This document shows, piece after piece, positions 5,401 to 40,862 of a stretch of 64,000 nt of DNA. Source of the stretch: Eledone cirrhosa (Eukaryota); assembly GCA_964016885.1 (NCBI GenBank), contig OZ024742.1, forward strand, positions 137,330,001-137,394,000. The letters run 5' to 3'. The notes under the pieces are model-generated. The model had not been told where the DNA came from and searched no databases. It was given only the letters and a program-made list of their open reading frames with translations. Made by a program: the position numbers and the translations under genes. Position 1 is the first letter of the stretch; every line of letters begins with the position of its first letter.

Positions 5401-5468
<68 letters not shown>

Positions 5469-5528
5469 TATATGGAATAGAATGAAACGAAATTTCATTT
5501 CTCACTCTTAGTACGGCACATACATACT

Positions 5529-5574
<46 letters not shown>

Positions 5575-5578
<4 letters not shown>

Positions 5579-5761
5579 AACCAGTAAGACCCCGACAGCT
5601 GAGCTCAAGCCGTTTCGACGGCTAATTCTGAATTAGCCGTCGAAACGGCTTGAGCTCAGCTGTCGGGGTCTTACTGGTTCCTATTACATACTCTACTACC
5701 TCAAGTATTGAGTACTTTGGTGCGTTATGGTCCACCTGGTTCACTACCACATTTCCTTCGT

Positions 5762-14836: not shown

Positions 14837-14888
<52 letters not shown>

Positions 14889-14892
<4 letters not shown>

Positions 14893-15081
14893 AACCAGTA
14901 AGACCCCGACAGCTGAGCTCAAGCCGTTTCGACGGCTAATTCTGAATTCAGAATTAGCCGTCGAAACGGCTTGAGCTCAGCTGTCGGGGTCTTACTGGTT
15001 CCTATTACCCACTCTACTACCTCAAGTATTGAGTAATTTGGTGCGTTATGGTCCACCTGGTTCCTTACCACATTTCCTTCG

Positions 15082-15114: not shown

Positions 15115-15961
15115 GCGTACCTTGGCGCCTTGTGCGTGAAGGGACGTATTTCATATATATATATATATATATATTAGGTATAGGATTATCCAAGATGTAG
15201 TAATGGTTAATTACTACACTGGATATGGTTGACGTACGGTAAGAGGTTACTCTACGAGTTATGGAAGAATTGTTGAAGAAACTTAGTTCCTGAACCTTCT
15301 GTATTCCGGAGTGTATATAAAGAATAAATAATAACAGGTAGAGATCATAAAAAGGTAATTTATTCCGTGTGCTTACAAATGTTTCCACGGTGGTACTACA
15401 GCCTAGTTATGCTATGTGCAAATTTACAGAACACAAATATCCAATGCTGTGACCACTGTATCCTCAGAGCAGAATGGTAAAATGTACAATGTAAATACCC
15501 TTAAGTGGGGTTGTTGAGGAAGATAGAGTAGAAAAGGAAGAGAGAAAAGTAGGAGAGAGGGAGAGAGAGAGAAAGATATGCAGGGGTTGGAGAAGTAGGA
15601 GAGAGTGGTTTGTAGATATCTTAATCAAAATGTTATGGTAGGGGTTTTATTATACTGGTTACTTTTGGAGAGATGCGTTGATAGTTAAGGTCGGAATTAT
15701 TTATTGCCCCAGAGGGCAGGTTCATAGAGGTGGAGAGGGAGGTAGGCCAAAGGCGAGAGAGAGAGTGGGTAATGGATGTAGAGAGAGAGGTAGAGAGGGG
15801 ACAGACGAAGTTTATGTGGTGAGTGAAATTTGGGTTTGTAGTAGTAATCTACGAATTGCACTGAGTTACCATTTATAGTAATAAGCGGTGTATTATCTTG
15901 TAGTGTGGGGGAAGAGAAGGTGGTTAGCTAGAAAGCGATGTTATAGTTACGGGTTCGAATG

Positions 15962-16670
15962 TTAAGTTATTTTATAGTGAGAGAATTTAGCTTTTAGTTT
16001 GTGGTTGCAGTATAATGATCGTTCAATTCTATCGTTAAGTAGTTTGTTTTTGGATTTTAATATGTAAAAGAGTTCAAAGTTACATAACCTGCAGTACTTC
16101 AATCCACTCCGATATGCACTTGCGCTGGAAAGTATATCCCATTTTAAGGTGAACTGTTGGTTGTGTTCACGGAGTTGCCAGGTCTTGTTGGCGAGCGTGG
16201 TCACAAAACGGTGATTAGGATGTTTGATTGAGAATCGATGGCGGTAGCAGCGAGTTTTTAACGAGGTGGTGGTAGATTCGATATAATACCATTTCTGGTC
16301 GTTCGATTCAACCGTGCATTGGTAAACAATGTTGGACTTTAGGCATTCATTCTTCAATGGACATCTTTCAGGTAGATGGCAGTTACATTCTTTGTTGTGG
16401 GTAGAGGGTATACCATGGATAGGTTGTGATAGCGGTACAGGTGGATTGTGTAATACCCGTCTCCCATTTAGTGGTTGGGAGGCAGATATTACGCTCTGCC
16501 CATCTGTTACTAAAATGTTTTGTTTTGTAGAGTTGTTTAATTGCCTTAAGTTAAGTTTTTTATGTATGCTTCGAGGTTTGGTGCCGTGGAGTATGATAGT
16601 CTAATAGTTTTAGAGTTCAGAATTTTGCTGTATTTATGGGAACTAGGGAAATGTTTGTTGATTAACTTAA
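15962..16670 (-). pseudogene. PLE thumb/linker and GIY-YIG endonuclease (frameshifted)
   Basis: LKLINKHFPSSHKYSKILNSKTIRLSYS; ECNCHLPERCPLKNECLKSNIVYQCTV...YYIEST...KTRCYRH...CRLCNFE...LLNDRIE...CNH. Confidence 0.8.
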
Positions 16671-16699
16671 GGGTATTTACATTGTACATTTTACCATTC

Positions 16700-16811
16700 T
16701 GCTCTGAGGATACAGTGGTCACAGCATTGGATATTTGAGTTCTGCAAATACTTGTAAATTTGCACATAGCATAACTAGGCTGTAGTACCACCGTGGAAAC
16801 ATTTGTAAGCA
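16700..16811 (+). ncRNA. Type I hammerhead with long stem II (family E)
   Basis: tgct CTGAGGA tacagtggtcacagc...gctgtagtaccaccgtg GAAAC attt GTA agca. Confidence 0.7.
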
Positions 16812-16858
16812 CACGGAATAAATTACCTTTTTATGATCTCTACCTGTTATTATTCATT

Positions 16859-16894
<36 letters not shown>

Positions 16895-18399
16895 CATGGT
16901 ATCGTATATATATATAAAGCTAGTCCATAGAATCATTAGATAAAATATATACAATATTTCTTCTCTCAATCAGAGTTGAAAGAGAAAGAGAACGAAAAGA
17001 TACTCTGACGCTTATAAATCAGGTCAAATTTGTTGATTATTTCCACTTAGCCACCAGTTGGGATTTGAAATGGAGGCATCCCCTAAATTTTCTGCTCTTT
17101 TAGTTAGAATAAATATGGTTAGGAGATAATAAACCATGTAATATCCTAAATTTCTCACACAGTGAGAGACGGCATTTCTTGGTACCGTTGTTTTAATGAC
17201 TGTATATTTCACATACCTCCCATTGTGGGATACTTTAATCCTCCAATTTCCAGACTGTTTTCGCCAGGGCTGTACATATATACACTTATATATATATATA
17301 TATGTGAGTGTATATATGTATATGTATAATTATATGTATTTGTATGAATTTCTTTCCTGGAATGTCAGCGTGTGGATGTACTTACAACATGTGTAAATAA
17401 TCTCCCGTTGCCTGGAAAACCTCCGAAAAAAATATACTAATTGAATGTGATGATTTGATAAACGACAAAACTATCAAGATTATTACCAATCTCACAGGTT
17501 TGAAGTTGATGTTGTTGAGGATGACATCAACGTTACATAAAAACTAAAGCCTAACCTAACCCTTATAATCGTTATTATTCTTATGACACACTATTCCTCA
17601 TCATCACCATATTCACCGTCATTCCCTTTCCAATCATCACTACCACCCCAATCTCCTCTACAACTACTACTATAATGACCACAACCACCACTCCCACCGG
17701 TAGGACCAGCACCAGCACCATCCCCCTCCTCACCACTATCAACTTCGCCGGACTTATTATCATCAGCAGCATCACCATTGCCCCAACAACATTGGCATCA
17801 TCATCATCATCATCATCATCTTATTCATTATCATCCTCATCTCCGGGCATCATTGTTTTTTTCTTTATCATAATCGGCCTCAACATCACCATCTGTTTCC
17901 AATTTGATATATAGAATATGAGAAAAATACGCACATATGGAAGCTTTTGTGAAAATGCTTCTTTTAGTCTTACATTCATGAACGCATTTATGTATGCATA
18001 TATTTATACATGTGCGTTTATGAAGTACGTTTGTATGAATGTAGATGTGTATGTATGTATTCATGTATATATGTATGCATGTATGTGTGTATTCATATAT
18101 ATATATATGTATGTATGTATGCATGTGTGTATTTATATATGATTCTATGTATTACAATTGACAGCATCCAGACAACAAAATCAACAAAAATGTTAAGCTC
18201 TTGTTATGCATTGCCAGGCGCCCGAGTAAACATAACTTTTGTCTTGCTGAAGTTAATTTTTAAACAAAAACCTTGCATGGTGAACAAAGAGATACATTAG
18301 AAACTGCATATCTGCTTCTGAATGCAAGGTCAAAGTCAGTAGCATAAAAGAGATCACCAACCATGGATACAACGGGGCAAATTAAATAGCTTCTCAGTA

Positions 18400-19754: not shown

Positions 19755-22700
19755 TTACAGACACATACTCGGAGTAGGCCCATTCACTCGGACCATTCTT
19801 GCCTCTCTCACGCATCTTTCAACAAAAAGCTGGGAAGAGAGCACCTCCCTTTCTACCCTGATTTTCCTTTTCAAATGAAATTTAAAAAAGTTAATCAGGG
19901 CATCACGGAAGAGGTAAGTGCTCGTCTTCAGCCCTTTCAAACATGTCCACCATACTATCTCTTTCGCCATGGCCACCAGACAGATGAAAACTGCCTGCCC
20001 TTCCTGGCTAAAGGAAGAGGGCGGGGCAATCCTCACGATGGACTCAGCAGATAGCTGGTGTTCGACATAAACCCACAAGTCAACAATGCTCGGACACTGG
20101 ACATTGGACATTGGACACTGGACGAGTGCGTGCAGGACGGTTTCGTCGCCCTGCGCGCATCTCGGACATACCCGGCAGACGGCACCTCCATGTCTGTAGA
20201 GTTTATCCCGAACTGGCAAAGCTCCTCGGTAGCACTGCCAGGCCAGGGATTTCTGGAAGTTGTCCATAGGCCTCGGCCCGAAAGTACTCCCGAAGAGATT
20301 GGCTAGTTGATTTTCGTCGACGCCTAGAGTTTCCCCAAGTTAGTCGTCGCTCTTCCCCTCCACTAAACCTCTATAGAACGCCAAGGTGGAGTTTCCACCG
20401 AACACATTGCCCGATTGGTCGAGGGCTGTGAGCTCCTGAAGACATTCCAGTCTCCAAGCGCTCCCTCTCGGTCTTCGCTTGACCCAGGACTGCAGCTCCG
20501 TCAAGGAGACGAGCTGGGGAAAGACGCGTCTAGCAAACGGCAACCACACCTGATCACTGTCGAGGAAGAGCTGGAGATGTCATTGCCTCAGCGCGTGTCT
20601 GCGCATCATCAGCCACGGCATTCCCAGCCCTCAACGTAGAGGGTGTTGACAGCAGATGGACCGCCTGACCATCGGAGCGCGTCCCTTCCACAAAAAGTGA
20701 AAGAGCAAATTCTCCAGCGCAGTCAGGCGGGGCTTAAGACAAGGTACGACAGTCAGGCGGTAGTAGATGACGGACGCGATATACGCGTTAGCCACCTCCG
20801 CTCGACCTTTCCGGGATAGCTTCTTCTCGGCCCATTTCTGGGTGAGAGAAACCACCCTGCTCGTCACCTCGTCCCAGTTTTTGTCCGTCTGGAGATCCGG
20901 ACTGAACCAGACCCCGATCAATTTAACCGTTCCGTCCGTCCAGCGCCCGACGACGCTGTTGGACGGCATGGACCTGCCTCTCCAGGTGCCGAGCTGCAGG
21001 CCCACTGACTTTTCCTGGTTGATCATTGCTCCTGTCACCGCTTCGTATTCTCTTAGTGTAGTGCCGATCGCCTCGATGTGTTTGGCGTTCGACACCACTA
21101 CGGTGATATCGTCCGCATATGCTGACACGGATCTTCCGCATCCTAGATGCCCCTCAACGTCTCCAGTTTGTGCAGTAATTGCTCGAGAGTCAATACGTAC
21201 AAGAGGGACGAGGGGGACATCCTTGTCGGACTGAGCGCATGATGTTGAACGATTACGAAAGGTGACCGTTCACTCTCACCACAGAGCAGATGTCGCTGTG
21301 AATGGCAGCGATCCAGCCTCTGAAGACGTGCCCAAAGCCAGCCACCATCAGGACTCCGCTAGGTAACGAGGTAACGATGGTCGACCCTATCGAAAGCTTT
21401 CGACTGATCTAAATTGATCAAGGACTCACCCGTGCCATGTTCCCTAGCTACCCTCTCTACGATGTATCGCATGAGGTGGAGGTTGTTGTGGATGGATCTG
21501 TCGGGAAGGGCGCATGTCTGCGCCTCTCCCACCAGACCACCAACGACAAGCGCGAACTTCTTTGCTAGCACCTTGGCCAAAATCTTGAACTCTGTGTTTA
21601 GCAAAGTTATGGGCCTAAAATTATCTATATTATCCCCATTGTTCGGATACTTTCTCAGCAGCGCTACAGCTCCTCGGCTCACAGAGCTGGGAATCCTCCC
21701 GTTCTGTGGCCAGTTGCAGTAGACGTCCGCCAAGAGGCCTCCGAACAAGACTGGCATCTGTACGTAAAGTTCATAGGGCAGACCATCCAAACCAGACGAT
21801 TTACCCCTTGTGCAGCCAGTCATTGCCTCCCGTACTTCAGCGGCTGTTATCGGCTTTTGGCAACACTCCGCCTCAGTGGCCGAGAGCCGCCGCAGTCCGT
21901 CGAGGTAGACACTAAAGTCCATCCCTCGATCCGGCCCGCCACTGCCCCCGAACAACTGAACGAAGTGTTGCTGAAAAGCTTCACACATTTGCCCGGGATC
22001 GAGTAGCATGCGCCCGTCGTGGTCCACCAAAGACCGGATCTTGGCTTTGTTACCACGACGAGCCTCCGCCACTCGGGCCCATTGAACGGCTTTCGTTCCC
22101 TCATGTCTGAGAGCACGCACCCTAGCTCTGACAACGCAGCCTTCGTGCTTTGCATTGAAGAATTGGTCAAGGGCCAATTTCGCCGCAAGTACGTCGGTCG
22201 CGATGCCTTTGCTAAGCGCCTCGTCTAATTTTCGAACTAATACGCCCTCTGCTCTATTCTTCTCTATTGCTAAAGCCTTACTAAGCCTAATGGACTCTAT
22301 TCTAATTGCTCTTTTCAGAGCAAACCACCACTTGTTGTTGACGATGGCCCCCATCAAAGCCCGCATCACTAGTTCGCTAATCCGGTCTCTGTAGGCCTTG
22401 CGCGCTGGTAAGGACGCGTTTAGCTTCGATTAGCCGGCCTCTCGTCTATGAAGCCTATCTAAGTCAAGCACACAGCTCACAAATTTGTGGTATGTGTAGC
22501 TGACTATCTTTAATTGTGGACAGCCTATGCTAGACCTTTCTATTTCCCTACAAAATACTCTATCAAGATATGATCTGGATGAAATATGCGATTTGTCCAA
22601 GTCCACATTGGTACATTCGGGAAATCCAATCGGTACCTGTCAGACAGTTCAAAATGCCTGAGCAGGTTGGTGAGGCTCTTGCACCCTCCTCCCCTATCCG

Positions 22701-23122
22701 CTAATCCCACACAGTCCCAGCGTGCATCTAAGATCCCGTTCCAGTCGCCCACTAACACTAAAGAGCGGGACGTTCCAAGAAAGGTCTCCAGACGCCATTA
22801 ACCTGAAAGCTTGTCCGTCTCCGCTGGTCACGTCCAGCACCACCAACTTACCTTCTGGGTTCAGGAAGATGGCCCGTATGGCGAGATCCAAACCTCTCCG
22901 AAAAAGCACAGCAACTCCTCCCCCCGATCCCAGACGGCTGGGAGATGCGTACACATCGTAGCCGCCGAAGACCGATGCGAAGGCCCGTGCTTCGGAGATT
23001 CTGGTCTCGCTGATGGCCACTACATCTATGTTTACTGACCTGAGGTCGTTGAGCAAGTGGCCCTGCTTCCATGACGACCACAAGCCACGCGCATTTATGC
23101 TGCCTATTCTGAGTGAGGTCAT
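19755..23122 (-). pseudogene. Tx1-like ORF2 (APE endonuclease, RT, zf-RVT), frameshifted
   Basis: IGSINARGL...AISET; LVGDWN; SGLDGLPYE...FRPITLLNTEFKILAK...LDQSKAFDRVDH; AYADD; CPRC...ETVLHALVQC. Confidence 0.9.
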
Positions 23123-23156
23123 GTTGAAATGGAGTGGAAAAGATAGGAAAGACCAC

Positions 23157-25193
23157 TTACCTTACTTCTCGTAGAGGAAGGATGGTTTGTCTATCCTTTT
23201 CACTGCTTGTGGCCTCCTCAGGAAGGATGTCCTTATAAATCCTCCTGGAGAGTGTTTGTCGGAAGTCTCCGATGTCTTTGGGGAATTTTTGTTTTAGTGA
23301 CGTGTACGTTTTCTGTGTGATGCGAGTGATTTGTATGTGTGGAGGTGGTGTGAACTTTTGGGTTGTTGTGTAGTCTTTTTCTGTGATGCTGGTGTTGTGT
23401 TGCACGTAGTGTAATAATTGTTTGTTGTTCAAATTTAATTGTTTCTACTTTAGGCACAAGGCCAGCAAATTACCCAGTGCATTACTGGTACTTTATTTTA
23501 TCGACCCCGTAAGGATGAAAGGCAAATGCTGTCTAGTGTGTATCGTTTTGGTTGTTTTGTTTTGTTTTGCGTTTGTTGTGGGTTTGTTTCTGTTACGCAT
23601 TTTGGTGACTTTTTTGGTGTTGGTGATATAGGTGTTGGGGTTAATGATGGTGATGGTGTTGGTGTTTGTGGTGATGGGGTTGGTGATGCTGGTGTGGATG
23701 GTGGCATATCTGTCCTAACTTTTTGGTTTGATAATTTATTTGTTTCCCTCTGTATTATGTTTTTGGCGGGGGAAGGAAGAGAATTTTTTCTTTTTTGATT
23801 TCTTTTTTTCTTTTTTCCTGATACCGTTTCCCACTCCTCGTCGTCACAATCTGTCTCCAGTTGCGATAAGCCGAGGAGTGGAAATTCCTTCACAGGCGTT
23901 GGTTTTGGTTGTGGCGTGGTGAATGTTGTAGCCGCTGGTGCTAGTTCTGGCGCGTTGGGTGGTGGTGGTGTTGGTTTTGCTACTGTTGCTGGGGTTGTTG
24001 GTATTCCTGTTGCTTCTGTTGTTGCTGTTACAGTTGCTTCTGTTGTTGCTGCTACAGTTGTTGCTGCCATCTCTACTGCTGGTGGTGTTGATGGTTGAGT
24101 CACTGAGGTGGGTAAGAGAGGTGGCCTCAACCTTTTAGCCTGAGGGCAGAAAGCCCTTAGGTGGGTTCCTTCAACACAAACGACACACCTAGGCCTTCTG
24201 CCCTCGACGATTACGATGAGGTGGCTGCCGTCAGTGAGGTCTATTACCTCTGGGATCTCCTCAATGCTTTTATGGTCCGCTTGGATTAGGAGCTCCATCC
24301 CAGATCCGGACCAGTTCTCCTGCTTTTCTTTCGCTATTTCGATTATCTTGGTGTTGGCCTCGATGCCGGCGAGGACGGCAGCCATTAGCCAGGGAATTTC
24401 GATGGCCGGTGGAACGTGGGTCACCCTGATCTTCACAAGTCTCTGGCCACAATAGCTTGGGACGTGTGTGAAGTCGTCACTTCTTAATGGGGCCATGGAG
24501 TGTTCTCTGGCCTCCTGTGGTGTTTCAAAGAACACGTCCACGGTTCCATATTTCTGCCCTCGTCTAATGTGGGGTTTTTTTGCCCACACATGTCCCAAAG
24601 CTTCTTGGATTTGAGACTCGGATGCCCGTTCCACTCGGCGCGATTTTATGTTAATTGTCCACGGTGCATAGGCGACGATGCTCCATTTTATTAGGTGGGG
24701 GTGAGGCTGACCCTGTACCCATCTTTCTTTACCATTTTTTGGCTTCTTCTAATTCCTCCTGAGTTACCTGAAATGCTTCGCACTGTTTTGCTACTCTGGC
24801 AAAATTCAGGGTGGTTTTCTTAATGTCATTGTTGCTGTTGTTGTTATCGTTATTTTTGTTATTATTAATTTTAGTTTCAGTTGTGGTGGTGGTGGCGTCA
24901 GTTGTGTTCGGTGTGGAAGAGTTCATTTTGGTTGAATTCATTTCGATATCACGAGTTACTTTATTTTTTTCTTGTGTTTCTGTTGTCGCTGTGGTGGTGG
25001 TGGTGGTGGTGGGGAGAGGGGCTTTAACACCTGCAGTCATTTGTAATGGCGGGAAATGAATGTCTGTCTGAGACAAATTAAAAATATTGCTACTGCTTAT
25101 ATTTTTAGTGTTGGCAAACCTATTAATATTTACAATGGTGGTCTCGGTGTGAGGTGTTAGTTTGTGAGGAAGGAGTGATTTTGAGTCGTCCAT
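23157..25193 (-). pseudogene. Tx1-like ORF1 (gag-like, CCHC zinc knuckle, Thr/Pro-rich), split
   Basis: ORFs 24729-25193, 23498-24634 (CVVCVEGTHLRAFC = CX2CX4HX4C; WETVSGKKKKR) and 23157-23432. Confidence 0.75.
23440..23526 (-). mobile_element. SINE 3' fragment nested in the Tx1 ORF1 region
   Basis: aggcacaaggccagcaaattacccagtgcattactggtactttattttatcgaccccgtaaggatgaaaggcaa, near-identical to 32294-32368. Confidence 0.8.
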
Positions 25194-26009: not shown

Positions 26010-29000
26010 CTACAGCGTGATAATGCCACACAAGAGCCACGTGGAGTGACGCAACCACCGGAGGCGGTGAATCCACCGGTGGTTATGTAACCATACATTC
26101 GCCAATCCTCGATAAGAGTGTTTAAATGTCGAACCTAAACAGTTCGAATAACGGTGAAATGGAGACTAGGACGTCATGTGACAGACTCTCACCCACCAGG
26201 TGCTCCCTGGCTCAGCAGCAGGGCCCTGGCCGTCAACCAAATACTGCTGGTGTCGGAGGAAGAAGAAGAAGGAAAGGGACCAGAACCAACTGTACGAAAT
26301 AATTGAATAGAACTGTTATGCAATGTTACCTGAAAAGTAACCCCAAGGAGAGGGGCTATAGGAAACGGATGCATAACATCTGGAACGAGATTGGTCTATT
26401 TAAATTAGATGAACAAAAATTGGCCGGGCAGGCTCGGGTAATAAGAACTAATGGGTGGATAAGCGAGCTGGAACTGGAGGAACTGAGCAGAGAGATTAAC
26501 TTGGAGATGGAGGGTGGAGTATGCCAGGCAAACGAGCCAGTGGGAAATGAATGTGAAGAGGTCGAGAGAACGGAGGAACCACCCGAAGCAGAAAATGATC
26601 TCAATACTGAGATAAATAATACCTGGAACAGAGATACGGCCCATTGAGGAGATGAATGCTGACGGGCTAGGACATGATTTGGTTGATATCCTAAATTTAG
26701 TGGTAGATGAATTGAACAATGATAGTGGGAGACCTATGAACCTAAGATTTGTAGACAGGAAAAAGTTAAAACAATCAACAGCTAAGGTAAACAAAGTCAT
26801 CCCATACCTTGAGGCGAGGAGCCTTCACCAGTGCAACAATATCCTCAAAGCAACAGCAAATACGGTGAGGAAACTACTTGGTATAAAAGCGAGAGGAAAC
26901 AAAGGACAAGAAAGAGCAGAGCCTTGGTGGAAGAAACAACTGAGTGGTCAAATCAGGGAAATGAGAAATGACATTGGAAAGCTTGAGTCCCTACTGAATG
27001 GGACACTAAAAAACATAGACACTAAAAATAAACTGGAAATAAAGTACAAAACTAGGAGGAAAAAGCTAAATATTATCATAGAGGAACTGAAGCAACGAAT
27101 TGTAGCAAAGAGTGCAAAAATCAGGCGATACGAGAACAGAGTCAGTCAGTATAAACAGAACCGCATGTTCGACAACAACCAGAAGATGCTGTTTGGACAG
27201 CTTGAAGGGAAAGAAAGAGGCAACGACTTGATCCCTGAGGCGGAACAAACTAAAACATTCTGGAGAGGAATATGATAGCAGGATGTTAGACATAATGACC
27301 AGGCAGTGTGGATTGAGACAGTACAGAAGGAGATCAGTGACCAGGCACACCAACAAACTGATTTGAGTATCACAGTTGAAACTCTTAAGGGGCAGGCCAA
27401 AAATCTAACCAACTGGAAATCACCAGGCCCAGATGGTGTGCAGGGGTATTGGATTAAAAATATAACATCCCTCCACCCGAAACTGACAACCATGTTCAAT
27501 GACTGTTTGATGTCAGGTGAGGTACCAGAGTGGTTGACAAAAGGTACCACAGTTCTGATAATGAAAGACCGAATCAAGGGTAATGATGTTACCAACTATA
27601 AACCTATCACATGTCTGTCCGTAATGTGGAAACTGTTGACGAGTATTGTGTCTGAGGAAATCTACCATCACCTCCACACAAACAACTTGTTACCGGACGA
27701 ACAGAAAGGATGCCGAAAGAAGTCACGTGGTACAAAGGACCAGTTACTTATTGATAAGATGGTAATGGGGAATTGCAAGAGGAGACACACTGATCTTGCC
27801 ATGGGATGGATAGACTACAGAAAGGCATTTGACATGGTGCCTCATTCTTGGATCACCAAAAGCCTGGAGATCTTCGAGGTGGCAGATAACATCAGACAGT
27901 TGTTGGGCAAAAGTATGAGGTCCTGGGAAACAGAGTTGACATCAACTGGAGAATCCTTGAGAAGCGTGAAGATCAAGAGAGGTATCTTCCAGGGAGATAG
28001 CCTGTCCCCTCTGTTGTTTGTCCTTGTCCTGATGCCCCTGACCAGTGTACTGCGAAAAGTGAGAACAGGATACAGGTTGGGAAAGTGAGGGCTTACCATC
28101 AATCACCTTCTCTTCATGGACGATCTTAAGCTCTTCGGGAAGAGTGAGAAGGAGTTGGATGTGCTTGTTGACACTGTCCGTATTTTCAGCAGTGATATAT
28201 GTATGCAATTTGGTATTAGTAAGTGTGGAGTCATTGTGATGAGGAGGGGTAGGTTGAGCAGAAGTAACGGAATCCAGATACCAACAGGTGAGATGATAAA
28301 GGAAATTGACTCTGAGGAAGGATACAATATTTGGGCGTTCTGGAGGCTGATGGCATAAAGAACAAAAAAATGAAGGAATTGTTAAGAACTGAATACATTC
28401 GGAGAATAAGGAGCGTATTGAAGTCACATCTGAACAGTAGGAATGCCATAAGCGCAGTAAATTCCCGAGCTGTGTCTATTATTAGGTACAGTGTGGGAAT
28501 TCTGAGATGGAATGTTGCCTAACAAAAAGAAATGGATAGGAAGACTAGGAAGCTATTGACTATCTACAACATATTCCACAAGAGGAGCGATGTCGATAGA
28601 CTCTACTTAAGGAGATCTGAGGGTGGAAGAGGTCTTATCAGCATAGAGGACTGTGTTCAGATGGAGAAAAACAACCTACATAAATACGTGACTGATAGTA
28701 AGGAGCCAATGCTCATAACTGTACTGAAGGAGGGGAAAATAGGCCAGGGGATGTCCAAGGAGGAAATAACATCAAGGTGAAAGAGCAGCCTTCAGGAAAA
28801 ATCCCTTCATAGTACCTTCTTTGAGAAAACTGAATTTAGAGATCCACAGACATGGAACTGGTTGAAAAGAGGAGACCTTAAAAAGGCTACAGAAGGAATG
28901 TTAATGGCTGCGCAGGAGCAGGCCCTCAAAACGAAGTGGTTGAAACACCACATTTACAAGGAGGAGGCTAGCCCACTGTGCAGGATCTGTGGAGAGAGAG

Positions 29001-29625
29001 AGAGGAGACTGTGGCTCACCTTGTATCCGAGTGTAAACACCTAGCCCAGACCCACTATAAGGGCTGGGGACATGATGTGATGGGCAGGACGATCCACTGG
29101 CACCTCTGCAAAGTAAACAATTTACCCCATTCTGAGAAGTGGTATGAGCATAAGCCGGAGTCGGTGATAGAGAACGACCAGGTGAAGGTGCTGTGGGATT
29201 TTAGGATACAGACGGACAAGAAACTGGAACACAATAGACCTGGCCTGGTGGTTGTGGACAAAGAAAAAGATCGTGCCTGATTGTGGATGTGGCCTGCCCA
29301 TTCGACACGAGAGTGCAAGAGGAGAGGGAGAAAATTAACCGATACCAAGTCTTAAAGTGGGAGGTAAAAAAGATTTGGAACTTCCATGAAGTCAAAGTGA
29401 TCCCCATTGTCATAAGCGCACTAGGGACTATCTCCAAAAGTTTCCAGGGATGGTTAAAGAAAATCGGCCCCTTCACGCTTTTTGGAACGCTTCAAAAGGC
29501 ATGCTTGCTGGGGACAGCAAGAACCCTCCGATACGTCCTGAATATCTGAGGCTGCAGGTAGTGGCTTGAAATTCATTCCAACAAACCTTCCAGTTAACTA
29601 ACATCAATGACTGAGACTCAAGGTG
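26010..29625 (+). mobile_element. Dong/R4-clade non-LTR retrotransposon, near full length, degenerate
   Basis: Single ORF in pieces: RGYRKRMHNIW; WKSPGPDG...YKPITCL...WIDYRKAFD...GIFQGDSLSP; FMDD; CRIC..ETVAHLVSEC...HD; RLE-like NRPG(D)LVV...DVACP; ends at (TAA)n; 5' boundary approximate. Confidence 0.88.
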
Positions 29626-29632
29626 TAATAAC

Positions 29633-29660
<28 letters not shown>

Positions 29661-29664
<4 letters not shown>

Positions 29665-32265
29665 CATTGGAAAGCTTGAGTCCCTACTGATGGGACACTA
29701 CAAAACATAGACACTAAAAATAGACTGGAAGTAAAGTACAAAACTAGGCGGAAAAAGCTAAATATTATCATAGAGGAACTGAAGCAACGAATTGTAGCAA
29801 AGAGTGCAAAGATTAGGCGATATGAGAGCAGTGTCAGTCAGTATAGACAAAACCACATGTTTGACAACAACCAGAAGATGTTGTTTGGACTGCTTGAAGG
29901 GAAAGAAAGGGGCGACGACTTCATCCCTGAGGCGGAACAGACTAAGACATTCTGGAGAGGAATATGGGAGAAGGATGTTAAACACAATGATCAGGCAGTG
30001 TGGATTGAGACAGTACAAAAGGAGATTAGTGAACAGGCACACCAACAAACTGATTTGAGTATCACAGTTGAAACTCTTAAGGGGCAGGCCAAAAAACTAA
30101 CCAACTGGAAATCACCAGGCCCAGATGGTGTGCATGGGTATTGGATTAAAAATATAACATCCCTCCACCCGAAACTGACAACGATGTTCAATGACTGCTT
30201 GATGTCAGGTGAGGTACCAGAGTGGTTGACAAAAGGTACCACAGTTCTGGTAATGAAAGACCGAATCAAGGGTAATGATGTTACCAACTATAGACCTATC
30301 ATATGTCTGTCCGTAATGTGGAAACTATTAACAAGCATTGTGTCTGAGGAAATCTACCATCACCTCCACATAAACAACTTGTTATCGGACAAACAGAAAG
30401 GATGCCGAAAGAAGTCCCGTAGCACAAAGGACCAGTTACTTATTGATAAGATGGTAATGAGGAATTGCAAGAGGAGAGACACTGGTCTTGCCATGGGATG
30501 GATAGACTACAAAAAGGCATTCGACATGTTACTTCATGCTTGGGGAACCAAAATCCTAGAGATCTTCAAGGTGGCAGATAACATCAGACAGATGTTGAGC
30601 AAAAGTATGAAGTCCTGGAAAACAGAGTTAACATCGGGTGGAGAGTACATGGGAGGCGTGAAGATCAAAAGAGGTATCTTCCAGGCAGATAGTTTGTCCC
30701 CTCTGTTATTTGTCCTTTCCCTAATAACCCTGACCATTATACTGCGAAAAGTGAGAGCAGGATATAAGTTGGGAAATGGAGAGCTTACCATCAATCACCT
30801 CCTCTTCATGGACGATCTTAAGCCCTTCGGGAAGAGTGAGGAGTTGGATGTATTTGTTGGCACTGTCCGTATTTTCAGCAATGATATATGTATGCTATTT
30901 GGTATTAAAAAGTGTGGAGTCCTAGTGATGAAGCGGGTTAAATTGAGCAGATGCAACGGAATCCAGGTACCAACAGATGAGATGATAAAGGAAATTGACA
31001 CTGAAGAAGGATACAAATATTTAGGTGTTCGGGAGGCAGATGACATCAAGAACAAAAAATGAAGGAATCGATAAGATCTGAGTACATTCGGAGAGTTAGG
31101 AGCGTATTAAAATCACATCTGAACAGTTGGAATGACATAAGTGCAGTAAATCCCCGAGCTGTGTCTATTATTATGTACAGTGCGGGAATTCTGAGATGGA
31201 ATGTTGCTGAACAAAAAGAAATGGATAGGAATACTAGGAAGCTATTGACTATCTACAACATGTTCCACAAGAGGAGTGATGTCGATAGACTCTACTTAAA
31301 GAGATCTGAAGGTGGAAGAGGTGTTATCAGCATAGAGGACTGTGTTCAGATGGATAAAAACAACCTACACAAATACGTGACTGATAGTAAGGAGCCAATG
31401 CTCAGAATTGTACTGAAGGAGAGGACAATAGACCAGGGGATGTCCAAGGAGGAAATGACAAAAAGGGGGAAGAGCAACATCATGAAAAATCCCTTCTTTG
31501 AGAAAACTGAATTTAGAGATCCACAGACATGGAACTGGATGAAAAGAGGACACCTTAAAAAGGCTACAGAATGAATGCTAATGGCTGCACAAGAACAGGA
31601 CCTCAAAACGAAGTGGGTGAAACACCATATTTACAAGGAGGAGGCTAGCCCACTGTGCCGGATCTGTGGAGAGAGAGAGGAAACTGTGGCTCACATTGTA
31701 TCCGAGTGTAAACACCTAGCCTAGACTCACTATAAAGGCTGGAGACATGATGTGATGGGAAGGGTGATCCACTGGCACCTATGCAAAGTAAACAATTTAC
31801 CACATAGAAAACGATCAGGTGAAGGTGCTGTGGGATTTTAGAATACAGACGGAGAAGAAACTGGAACATAACAGGCCTAACCTGGTGGTTTTGGACAAGT
31901 AAAAAAGATCGTGCCTGATTGTGGATGTAGCCTGCCCATTTGACACGAGAGTGCAAGAAAAGGAGAGGGAGAAAATTAACCGATACCAGGACTTAAAATG
32001 GGAGGTAAAAATGATTTGGAACTGCCATGAAGTCAGAGTCCTCCCGATTGTCATAGGCGCACTAGGTACTATCTAAAAGAGTTTCCAAGGATGGTTAAAG
32101 AAAATTAGTCTAGCCCCGCTTTTTGGAACACTTCAAAAGGCATGCTTGCTGGGAACAGCAAGAACCCTCCGATACGTCCTGAATATCTGAGGCTGCAGGT
32201 AGTGGCTTGATATCCATTTCAACAAACTTTCCAGTTAAATAACATCAATGACTGAGACTCAAAGA
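29661..32265 (+). mobile_element. Dong/R4-clade LINE, 5'-truncated second copy in tandem
   Basis: Colinear with 26968-29625; starts directly after the (TAA)n tail of copy 1; ends at (AAT)n. Confidence 0.9.
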
Positions 32266-37978: not shown

Positions 37979-39806
37979 ACGAAGGAAATGTGGTAAGGAA
38001 CCAGGTGGACCATAACGCACCAAAGTACTCAATACTTGGGGTAGTAGAGTGGGTAATAGGAACAAGTAAGACCCCGACGGCTGTGCTCAAGCCGTTTCGA
38101 CGGCTAATTCTGTACTGAATGAAAATGTATTCTGGTATTTAAATAGCCGAGCTTATCAAGGGGTAATTCCATATATGGTCAAAGAGATAATCAACAGGAT
38201 TGGTCACATCACAAGTTAGTAGAAAATCTGTGATGGCAAATTGGTGGGGGAAGGGGTAGCTAAACCTGCCGGTAGGAGAAAAAGGGAGGGGGGTGGAGTA
38301 GACCCATTCATGCGTTGGTAGTGCCAGCTACAGCTGGGTGTGAGGTCAAAGAGGATACTGGGGAGGGGGAGGGGGAGGAGGTCGAAACGGTAAGTAGAAC
38401 AATGAGGGTAAAACTATAAAGGGTACTGAGAGAAAAAAAAAAAAATAAGCAAAGTCTGGTTACTAAGACTTAAGTCTCTCGCTATTGCTAGGCTAAAGAA
38501 ATACATAAATAAATAAATAAACAAATAAGTGAATAAAAGAATAGATAAATAAATTTTAAAAAAAAGTTTATATATATATATATAATGTAGAATGAAAAAA
38601 AAAAAATAATAATAATAATAGAAATAAACTAGGTGGGGCGGAAATAAAGGGACCCTTATACGAGGGGGGTGGGGGCCAGAATACTAAAGAGATTACCACG
38701 AAATATTAAAGGTTTCTACCCCAATCACAGGGCCAGCAACCACCCAGTGCAAGAAAGTAAAGTAGTACGAGAAAATAAATCAGGGTCCCGCAAACAAATA
38801 CTAGTGCTAACTCTAAGGGTAACGCCACGAAACAAAAAGTCTTATACAAGCTACATGAAAGATCGTACGAAGTAAAAGTAAAGAACGGAAAATTAATACA
38901 GGAACACCCCCCCCCCCCCAACAAAAAAAGGGAAAAAGAAGAAAGAAGGGGGGGGGGGGTTCCTGTATTAATTTTCCGTTCTTTACTTTTACTTCGTACG
39001 ATCTTTCATGTAGCTTGTATAAGACTTGTTGTTTCGTGGCGGTACCCTTAGAGTTTTTCGTACTAGTTTACTTTCTTGCACTGGGTGGTTGCTGGCCCTG
39101 TGATTGGGGTAGACACCTTTATTATTTCGTGGTAGTCTCTTTAGTATTCTGCCCCCCCCCCCCCCCTTGTTGACCCGTCACCGTACGATACACGCACTTA
39201 TACCTCGTATAAGAGTCCCTTTATTTCCGTCCCACCTAGTTTATTTCTATTATTATTATTTTTTTTTTTTAATCTACATTATATATATATATATATATAC
39301 TTTTTTTTAAATTTATTTATCTATTCTTTTATTCACTTATTTGTTTATTTATTTATTTATGTATTTCTTTAGCCTAGCAATAGCGAGAGACTTAAGTCTT
39401 AGTAACCAGACTTTGCTTATTGTTTTTTTCTCTCTCAGTACCTTTTATAGTTTTACCCTCATTGTTCTACTTACCGTTTCGACCTCCTCCCCCTCCCCCT
39501 CCCCAGTATCCTCTTTGACCTCACACCCAGCTGTAGCTGGCACTACCAACGCATGAATGGGTCTACTCCACCCCCTCCCTTTTTCTCCTACCGGCAGGTT
39601 TAGCTACCCCTTCCCCCACCAATTTGCCATCACAGATTTACTACTAACTTGTGATGTGACCAATCCTGGTGATTATCTCTTTGACCATATATGGAATTAC
39701 CCCTTGATAAGCTCGGCTATTTAAATACCAGAATAAATTTTCATTCAGTACAGAATTAGCCGTCGAAACGGCTTGAGCTCAGCCGTCGGGGTCTTACTTG
39801 TTCCTA
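37977..39806. mobile_element. Family D long form: 1.8-kb palindrome in (TA)n
   Basis: Arms of about 860 nt (38056-38920 vs 38948-39806) with high identity; 27-nt purine-rich spacer between C-run and G-run; left arm carries the 80-nt tail. Confidence 0.9.
39699..39792 (+). ncRNA. Type I hammerhead, U3:A8 core, long stem II loop (family D)
   Basis: acccc TTGATAA gctcggcta...tagccgtc GAAAC ggct tgagctc agcc GTC ggggt; inverted copy near 38071-38164. Confidence 0.78.
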
Positions 39807-39901
39807 TATATATATATATATATATATATTACGTTATTATAGTTAAGATTCAAGCAGCATCATCAATAATAACAACAATATATACAATATATATATATTT
39901 T

Positions 39902-39940
<39 letters not shown>

Positions 39941-39945
<5 letters not shown>

Positions 39946-40772
39946 TTAGAAACACACAGATACATGCGGACACACACATATATACATGAATGCATCCGCA
40001 CCCAACTGTGAGTTAAGGATGCCAACTTCACCGATGTTGCTCAATGAATGACTGGGACATATATGATATATTGTTTTTGTTTATGCCACGAAACTACGTA
40101 GTCGAGGAATTTAGGAGCAGTTTAGGTATGATACATTTTATTACTAATTATATCTAAATGTTTCCTCTCTCTTCATAATGTATTTTTAACTCTGATACTG
40201 GTTCAGTCTAGTTCAACTGAATTGGTCTGTCCCAGTCATTCATTGAGCAACATCGGTGAAGTTGGCACCCTTAACTCACAGTTGGGTGCGAATGCATTCA
40301 TGTATATATGTGTGTGTCTGCATGTATCTGTGTGTTTCTAAATATATTGTTAATAACTCCCTCTGGTCGAGCAATCTTTGAAGTGTGGGGACAGCTGGAA
40401 AACTTCCATTACTCATACTTCTCGCCTTCTTCACCACCTCTTCTACGGCCTCGATATAAATACCCCCTCCGCCTCCGTGGTATTTTCTTCGGGGTTATAA
40501 GAGGCTTAGCTCTGTTTCTCGACCGTTATATCGCGTGACTATCTCCCCCTCCGCCTTTTGGGATTCTTTCTCACGTCGTGTAGACGCGTTCTTGAGACTA
40601 GTAAAATGAGGTATCCTCTTGATAAGTCGGCAGACCTCGCAAGGACTCTATATCTTTATGATATATTGTTTTTGTTTATGCCACGAAACTACGTAGTCGA
40701 GGAATTTAGGAGCAGTTTAGGTATGATACATTTTATTACTAATTATATCTAAATGTTTCTTCTCTCTTCATA

Positions 40773-40778
<6 letters not shown>
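39941..40778 (+). mobile_element. Family J retrozyme-like element (direct terminal repeat with HHR, plus inverted 5' segment)
   Basis: 40063-40182 repeats at 40658-40777; 39941-40058 inverted vs 40228-40346; no credible ORF; TA flanks. Confidence 0.8.
40614..40703 (+). ncRNA. Type I hammerhead, U3:A8 core (family J)
   Basis: tcctc TTGATAA gtcggca...tgccac GAAAC tacgta GTC gagga; stem III is the palindrome actacgtagt. Confidence 0.78.

Positions 40779-40862
<84 letters not shown>

What the first reader, a model, noticed from the sequence alone, without database searches (positions are those of the whole stretch)
40063..40778. Family J: 595-nt non-coding unit between two HHR cleavage sites
Seen: GAAACtacgtaGTC^gagga occurs at 40090-40108 and 40685-40703 within a direct repeat of about 120 nt. 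The cleavage sites at 40103 and 40698 are 595 nt apart, with no credible ORF. The upstream HHR lacks its 5' half here. Known: retrozymes are copied from circular or multimeric RNA and leave terminally redundant units. Inference: a retrozyme with a monomer of about 595 nt, potentially a circular RNA.
Basis: partly seen in the sequence, partly recalled or inferred. Interest (0 to 1): 0.72.

Follow-up and report, generated by a model that had tools for sequence, protein, structure and literature searches.

The report
Two-armed hammerhead retrozyme, Penelope footprint
This is one of thousands of genomic copies of a 595-base non-coding repeat carrying a predicted self-cutting RNA motif, and its back-to-back insertions with two fixed ends suggest that a Penelope-type jumping-gene enzyme likely copies one RNA, probably a circle, from both sides of a DNA cut.

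Summary
In detail: a 122-nt repeat at offset 595, predicted cleavage after 40103 and 40698, and no long ORF. The insertion is larger than reported: an inverted arm at 39939-40059 belongs to it.

The family has 7,012 exact marker hits and 588-595-nt head-to-tail arrays in (TA)n. Arms end at monomer position ~80 (A) or ~245 (B). Of 79 two-armed insertions, 75 are A+B, none A+A or B+B, and 4 have one odd end. An intact Penelope-like element (PLE) in the same genome shows the same A+B anatomy (10 of 10), so PLE mobilisation is well supported; J's own partner was not found.

The two arms of an insertion differ by 0.5%, against 3.3% between insertions. One variant lies only in the 7 monomers of one insertion, in both arms; 3 other tested variants were shared lineages. 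Most arms cross the cleavage site without indels. This fits twin-primed copying of one RNA, probably circular, but an uncleaved multimer is not excluded. No RNA data were available.

Verdict: new member of the animal non-LTR retrozymes. The scan noted the same pattern on other families in this genome.

The parts
39887..39938 (.). TA-rich target, left flank
39939..40059 (-). Inverted arm, monomer positions 125-245; its 3' end (site B) abuts the TA run at 39939
   Evidence: blastn 97.5% to 40228-40348
40060..40061 (.). Two-base junction between the 5' ends of the two arms
   Evidence: L001
40062..40778 (+). Forward arm: m554-595, one full monomer, then m1-80; 3' end at site A
40090..40108 (+). 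3' half of the upstream hammerhead (GAAA, palindromic stem III, predicted cleavage after 40103, stem I 3' strand); 5' half lost by 5' truncation
40104..40698 (+). 595-nt non-coding monomer, cleavage site to cleavage site; strongly self-paired on this strand
   Evidence: z -6.1 linear; circular -172.9 kcal/mol, z -5.6, antisense -129.2
40176..40183 (+). Site A (m80), read through here; inferred reverse-transcription start
   Evidence: 2,016 exact A+TA junctions and 4,822 read-through copies in the genome
40340..40355 (+). Site B (m244-252), read through here; second inferred start, 165 nt downstream of A
40614..40703 (+). Complete type I hammerhead with U3-A8 core, long stem II insert, palindromic stem III; predicted cleavage after 40698
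   Evidence: stem I changes in relatives
40779..40860 (.). (TA)n target, right flank

Best explanation
This is a two-armed insertion of an abundant 595-nt non-coding repeat with a predicted hammerhead ribozyme, likely pasted into (TA)n by a borrowed Penelope-like reverse transcriptase/endonuclease that would prime both cut DNA strands on one RNA, probably a monomer circle. Shown: tandem monomers, TA targets, two fixed 3' ends, A+B pairing, same sequence variant in both arms, indel-free passage through the cleavage site. Inferred: arrays are transcribed; the hammerheads, probably pairing through the stem III palindrome, cut out monomers that are ligated into circles; a PLE protein dimer cuts both strands of a TA run; one subunit starts at site A and the other at site B; each copies round the template for a variable length; the two cDNA ends join by microhomology. 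If one arm fails, a single-armed copy results.
For: Ends: 198 of 204 A or B ends are followed by a TA run. Pairing: 75 of 79 two-armed insertions are A+B, 0 A+A, 0 B+B, 4 with one odd end; 60 of 64 without the group partly picked from known pairs; 24 of 26 in the position-ordered sample, whose single-armed copies split 10 A / 10 B. Coordinate lists on C1 0-73 Mb give 27 A+B and no like pairs (overlaps that sample). Control: an intact PLE family (ORFs of 782-786 aa) has two 3' ends 142 nt apart before TA, and 10 of 10 two-armed copies with both ends visible are A+B (my reading). One template: differences are 0.41% within arms, 0.54% between arms, 3.3% between insertions; inside one young lineage 0.30%, 0.35% and 1.37%. 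Allele 320G has 7 hits in the genome, all in one insertion, 5 in one arm and 2 in the other. Not a cleaved linear monomer: 98 of 103 A arms and 81 of 99 B arms cross the cleavage site, 119 of 202 exceed one monomer, and 342 of 345 junctions are exact with no indel in the other 3. Literature: two RT start sites, both strands extended and a predicted dimer for an anole PLE (PMC11167929); circRNA template proposed for retrozymes (PMC7229834).
Against: Self-cleavage, transcription and circularity are untested here. Only 1 of 4 sample-private alleles was private to one insertion in the genome; the others had 136, 20 (10 loci) and 122 hits. No donor monomer was identified. 5' ends are in excess just inside the cleavage site (21 of 202 at m9-28, scan p 0.0013), as some linear cleaved templates would give. 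PMC11167929 found unprocessed RNA to be the main substrate in vitro and no difference in start site between strands. A 20-kb array has higher-order repeats, so DNA-level amplification also makes multimers. The sister family has one B+B insertion against 12 A+B. The hammerhead is not the minimum-energy fold. The autonomous partner of J was not found.
Confidence: 0.68

Rival explanations
1. Same PLE twin priming, but the template is a linear, uncleaved or partly cleaved multimeric transcript of a donor array; no circle is needed.
For: Excess of 5' ends at m9-28; 3 of 4 tested alleles are shared by many loci; hammerhead mutants did not change insertion for the anole PLE (PMC11167929); autonomous PLEs show the same anatomy.
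Against: Every new variant must pass from one monomer to all monomers of an array. Arrays are homogeneous while the family holds many haplotypes. The 320G insertion has 7 of 7 monomers marked and no donor in the assembly.
Confidence: 0.22
2. The template is a cleaved linear monomer, and the RT jumps end to end on the same molecule to build multimers.
For: It would also give homogeneous arrays and stops near the RNA 5' end.
Against: None of 345 junctions carries an indel; end-to-end jumps by retroelement RTs often leave extra bases (recalled, not from a call).
Confidence: 0.06
3. Arrays and inverted arms arise at the DNA level (satellite amplification, fold-back, gene conversion) after simple monomer insertions.
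For: Higher-order repeats in the 20-kb array; local amplification proposed in bioRxiv 10.64898/2026.07.22.740005.
Against: Fold-back would copy the same end (A+A or B+B), the opposite of what is seen; both outer ends sit in TA runs; the arms' 5' ends fall at different positions.
Confidence: 0.04

Closest known systems
Animal non-LTR retrozymes (Cervera and de la Pena 2020, PMC7229834; Li, Clavereau and Pollet 2026, bioRxiv 10.64898/2026.07.22.740005)
   Same: Non-coding tandem monomers, one type I hammerhead each, GC under 50%, strong self-pairing, coexistence with PLEs.
   Different: 595 nt is above the 170-400 nt circles characterised in 2020 but inside the 51-972 bp consensus range of 2026. 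The core is U3-A8 with a long stem II insert. The parts read do not describe fixed internal ends or two-armed insertions.
EN+ Penelope-like elements (Craig 2021, PMC8557442; Frangieh 2024, PMC11167929)
   Same: 5' truncation, inverted 5'-truncated arm, (TA)n targets, two 3' ends with the 'tail' often on one end only.
   Different: No ORF; the tail is 165 nt rather than 30-40; multimeric arms; pairing is near-strict here, and both arms share one variant.
Schistosoma Cercyon PLE hammerheads with U3-A8 core (PMC4209133)
   Same: Same core swap, bulged base near the start of stem II, palindromic stem III suited to dimer cleavage.
   Different: Those are minimal and mostly single motifs; here the motif sits in tandem monomers with a long structured stem II.
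Plant LTR retrozymes (as summarised in PMC7229834 and the 2026 preprint)
   Same: Similar size and proposed circular intermediate.
   Different: Those have type III hammerheads in LTRs, PBS/PPT and 4-bp duplications; the repeat here is an arm overlap, not an LTR.

Membership tests
Animal non-LTR retrozyme | Tandem monomers, each with a complete type I hammerhead motif | tested here: met
Animal non-LTR retrozyme | Non-coding, no LTR | tested here: met
   longest ATG ORF 76 aa; ends at internal sites, not terminal repeats
Animal non-LTR retrozyme | Highly self-paired monomer | tested here: met
   z -6.1 and -5.6; 7 of 138 consensus pairs with a two-sided change in 6 sequences, no significance test
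Animal non-LTR retrozyme | Self-cleavage | not testable with these tools
   motif and stem I changes only; 8 of 9 Xenopus elements did not cleave in the 2026 preprint
Animal non-LTR retrozyme | Expressed as circular and linear monomer RNA | not testable with these tools
   no RNA holder listed
Animal non-LTR retrozyme | Autonomous PLEs in the same genome | tested here: met
   59,798 first-look candidates for a GIY-YIG query; four ORFs of 782-786 aa among 5 loci
Non-autonomous PLE derivative | PLE insertion signature (5' truncation, inverted arm, tail, TA target) | tested here: met
Non-autonomous PLE derivative | Sequence homology to the pLTR of an autonomous PLE | tested here: inconclusive
   none to the one family tested; relatives found were non-coding; other PLE families not examined
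Plant-type LTR retrozyme | Type III hammerhead in LTRs | tested here: not met
   type I topology, tandem arms
3' remnant of a coding PLE | Sequence upstream of the repeat leads into an RT/EN ORF | tested here: not met
   upstream is another monomer, an inverted arm or a flank in the insertions mapped

The most novel reading that the evidence does not exclude
A PLE dimer binds one circular retrozyme RNA asymmetrically and rolls round it from two fixed sites at once, so each insertion records a single RNA molecule. Variants fixed across whole insertions are skewed to sense-strand A>G (34 against 16 T>C; single-monomer changes 27 against 46), which may be A-to-I editing or RNA-level replication written back into the germline genome.
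Probability: 0.25. Interest if true: 0.8.

Novelty: new member of a known kind. Interest (0 to 1): 0.52.

Why it matters
How animal retrozymes re-enter the genome has been proposed (circRNA template, PLE enzyme), and how PLEs make inverted arms with a tail on one end is open. This family gives a countable footprint for both: near-strict pairing of two start sites, one RNA variant per insertion, and the same anatomy in an intact PLE of the same genome. It names two start sites and a 595-nt template for a direct in vitro test.

Tried and rejected
RNA evidence: no RNA holder listed. Contigs of four runs of unknown kind were laid; one holds a 620-nt looping contig at depth 8, which low-coverage tandem DNA would also give, so it was not used.
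Rfam at E<=1: no hammerhead match in the window.
Partner search: the intact PLE family shares only TG microsatellite with J. A 71%-similar neighbour led to a non-coding 580-nt sister family. A pattern for other stem I contexts gave 76-90% non-coding relatives.
Pfam did not name the PLE ORF or the GIY-YIG piece, so that naming rests on my reading of the motifs.
Donor search in the 189G lineage found no donor; 189G recurs on several backgrounds.
Linear transcript from an internal TATA-like site near m352: 22 5' ends in m385-424, not the top window; dropped.
A>G skew: post hoc. Fisher p 0.0009 overall, 0.012 without the first set and the 189G loci, but there C>T over G>A is skewed too (p 0.027), as selection for G-U wobbles predicts. 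Strictly sample-private changes in the later sets show no skew (2 v 3, 3 v 2). No clear ADAR neighbour preference. Kept as a lead only.
The host organism was not determined; earlier notes call it a cephalopod.

Full report
Observation. The window holds the motif at 40090-40108 and 40685-40703 inside a 122-nt direct repeat at offset 595 with one mismatch. I number the monomer m1-595 from 40104 to 40698. The downstream hammerhead is complete: stem I TCCTC/GAGGA, core TTGATAA, a stem II that closes a long hairpin insert, and a palindromic stem III. The U3-A8 swap is a known natural PLE variant, and palindromic stem III motifs are described as working as dimers (PMC4209133, 11 passages seen). The whole insertion is (TA)n, inverted arm, two bases, forward arm, (TA)n.

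Family. The genome (3.0 Gb) has 7,012 exact hits to a 31-mer of the unit. Copies form head-to-tail arrays with periods of 588-595. There are 2,016 exact site-A ends joined to TA and 4,822 read-through copies, and 1,013 forward-strand site-B ends (the reverse count is inflated by overlapping matches). From 79 insertions on 73 Mb of C1 I estimate about 3,000 insertions. The monomer folds far better than shuffles (z -6.1; circular z -5.6 on 40 shuffles, antisense strand unremarkable). The longest ATG ORF is 76 aa. A 580-nt sister family about 74% identical and relatives at 76-90% keep the ribozyme. Among 24 distinct motifs in those relatives, stem I reads TCCTC/GAGGA in 8, TCCTC/GGGGA in 5 and TCCCC/GGGGA in 3; the motifs were picked by a core pattern, so core conservation there is not independent.

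Ends. I mapped 127 insertions, leaving out the 20-kb array, a segmental duplicate in L098, repeated loci, a sister-family piece in L055 and a 56-nt piece in L124. 3' ends fall at m78-85 (A) or m243-252 (B), and 198 of 204 are followed by TA. Of 79 two-armed insertions, 75 are A+B, none A+A or B+B, and 4 have one odd end. There are also 43 single arms (24 A, 19 B), 1 odd single, 2 complex and 2 cut by the locus edge. Fifteen of the 75 come from regions partly picked as known pairs; without them it is 60 of 64. The position-ordered sample gives 24 of 26, with single arms 10 A and 10 B. Among 100 listed A ends no two diverge within 8 kb. The sister family gave 12 A+B and one true B+B, so the rule is strong, not absolute.

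Control. A GIY-YIG-like frame in the window (15962-16600) led to a large PLE family with intact 782-786 aa frames in 4 of 5 loci fetched. It has two 3' ends 142 nt apart before TA, and the 10 two-armed copies with both ends visible are all A+B (counted by hand). It shares no sequence with J beyond microsatellite, so it shows the signature but is not shown to be the partner.

Template. Monomers within an arm differ by 0.41%, the two arms by 0.54%, and separate insertions by 3.3%; within one young lineage the figures are 0.30%, 0.35% and 1.37%. So both arms come from one RNA or one donor. Twenty of 64 young insertions had a substitution fixed in all their copies and absent from the rest of the sample. 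I tested four such alleles genome-wide. One has 7 hits, all in its insertion and in both arms. Three mark wider lineages. A cleaved linear monomer primed at m80 or m245 could give only 80 or 245 nt, yet 179 of 202 arms cross the cleavage site, 119 exceed one monomer, and none of 345 junctions has an indel. A circle explains all this simply. A linear multimer needs a separate step that spreads one monomer's variant over an array; DNA-level duplication can do so, and the 20-kb array shows higher-order repeats. 5' ends are in excess at m9-28 (p 0.0013), which fits some cleaved linear templates or a stall at the 5' hairpin.

Substitution skew. Alleles fixed across insertions are enriched for sense-strand A>G over T>C compared with single-monomer changes. 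Editing of the template, selection for G-U wobbles and transcription-linked mutation all predict this direction, and the replication is partial. It is a lead.

Comparison. PMC7229834 (parts 2-4 of 6 read) defines non-LTR retrozymes and proposes target-primed copying of circRNA by PLE enzymes. bioRxiv 10.64898/2026.07.22.740005 (parts 1-3 of 5 read) links them to pLTRs by phylogeny. PMC11167929 (parts 1-2 of 4 read) shows two internal RT starts, extension of both strands and a predicted dimer. PMC8557442 (12 passages seen) notes inverted arms and a tail often at one end only, so the qualitative asymmetry is in print. Searches listed no paper that, in its title, abstract start or the parts I read, reports a pairing count or one template for both arms; the library is open-access only and I read no supplements, which may bear on this. 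The scan's own notes report the same layout for other hammerhead families in this genome; none matched this sequence. I had recorded my reading before opening them.

Verdict. New member of a known kind, with an unusually clear mechanistic footprint. Retrozyme mobilised by PLE machinery: about 0.9. Circular template: about 0.65-0.7. Interest 0.52.

Noticed in passing
window 38056-38364 (-), 39500-39807 (+), also 14866-15005 and 5409-5684: A second hammerhead family with the same U3-A8 core, a long stem II insert and a longer palindromic stem III, also in diverging arms ending at TA.
   Followed up: partly
L005:2338-2362 (G000:C28 near 108.448 Mb): A J arm ending at site A is joined at its 5' end to 23 nt of the 3' end of that second family: possibly a two-armed insertion primed on two different RNAs.
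   Followed up: no
window about 15175-16900: Two-armed, 5'-truncated PLE with a C-terminal GIY-YIG-like frame; intact relatives at L177, L179-L181 with 782-786 aa frames that Pfam does not name.
   Followed up: partly
G000:C1:193981005-194001326 (L031-L033): A 20-kb two-armed J array of about 34 monomers with 4- and 6-unit higher-order repeats, showing later DNA-level amplification.
   Followed up: partly
L202-L221 and L222-L251: A 580-nt sister family and further 76-90% relatives with the same ribozyme and the same two end sites; L216 is a B+B exception.
   Followed up: partly
window 11935/13010, 13318/13576, 36377/37723, 46908/47476: Further inverted pairs of hammerhead-like cores; only 13576 passed my stem check.
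   Followed up: no
window 40455-40473 and 40540-40550: A TATA-like word and two copies of a GC-box-like word, kept in the sister family: possible internal promoter; labels are recalled consensus names.
   Followed up: partly
L232:1-849: A 283-aa frame that looks like the C-terminus of a different PLE clade, next to a J relative.
   Followed up: no
window 26616-31574 and 19755-24748: Reverse-transcriptase frames of non-LTR elements (PF00078 hits); the core-like matches at 27358 and 30050 lie inside such frames and are probably not ribozymes.
   Followed up: no
L187 (G000:C9 near 44.544 Mb): An insertion whose fixed differences from the majority are mostly A>G, like a hyper-edited template.
   Followed up: no
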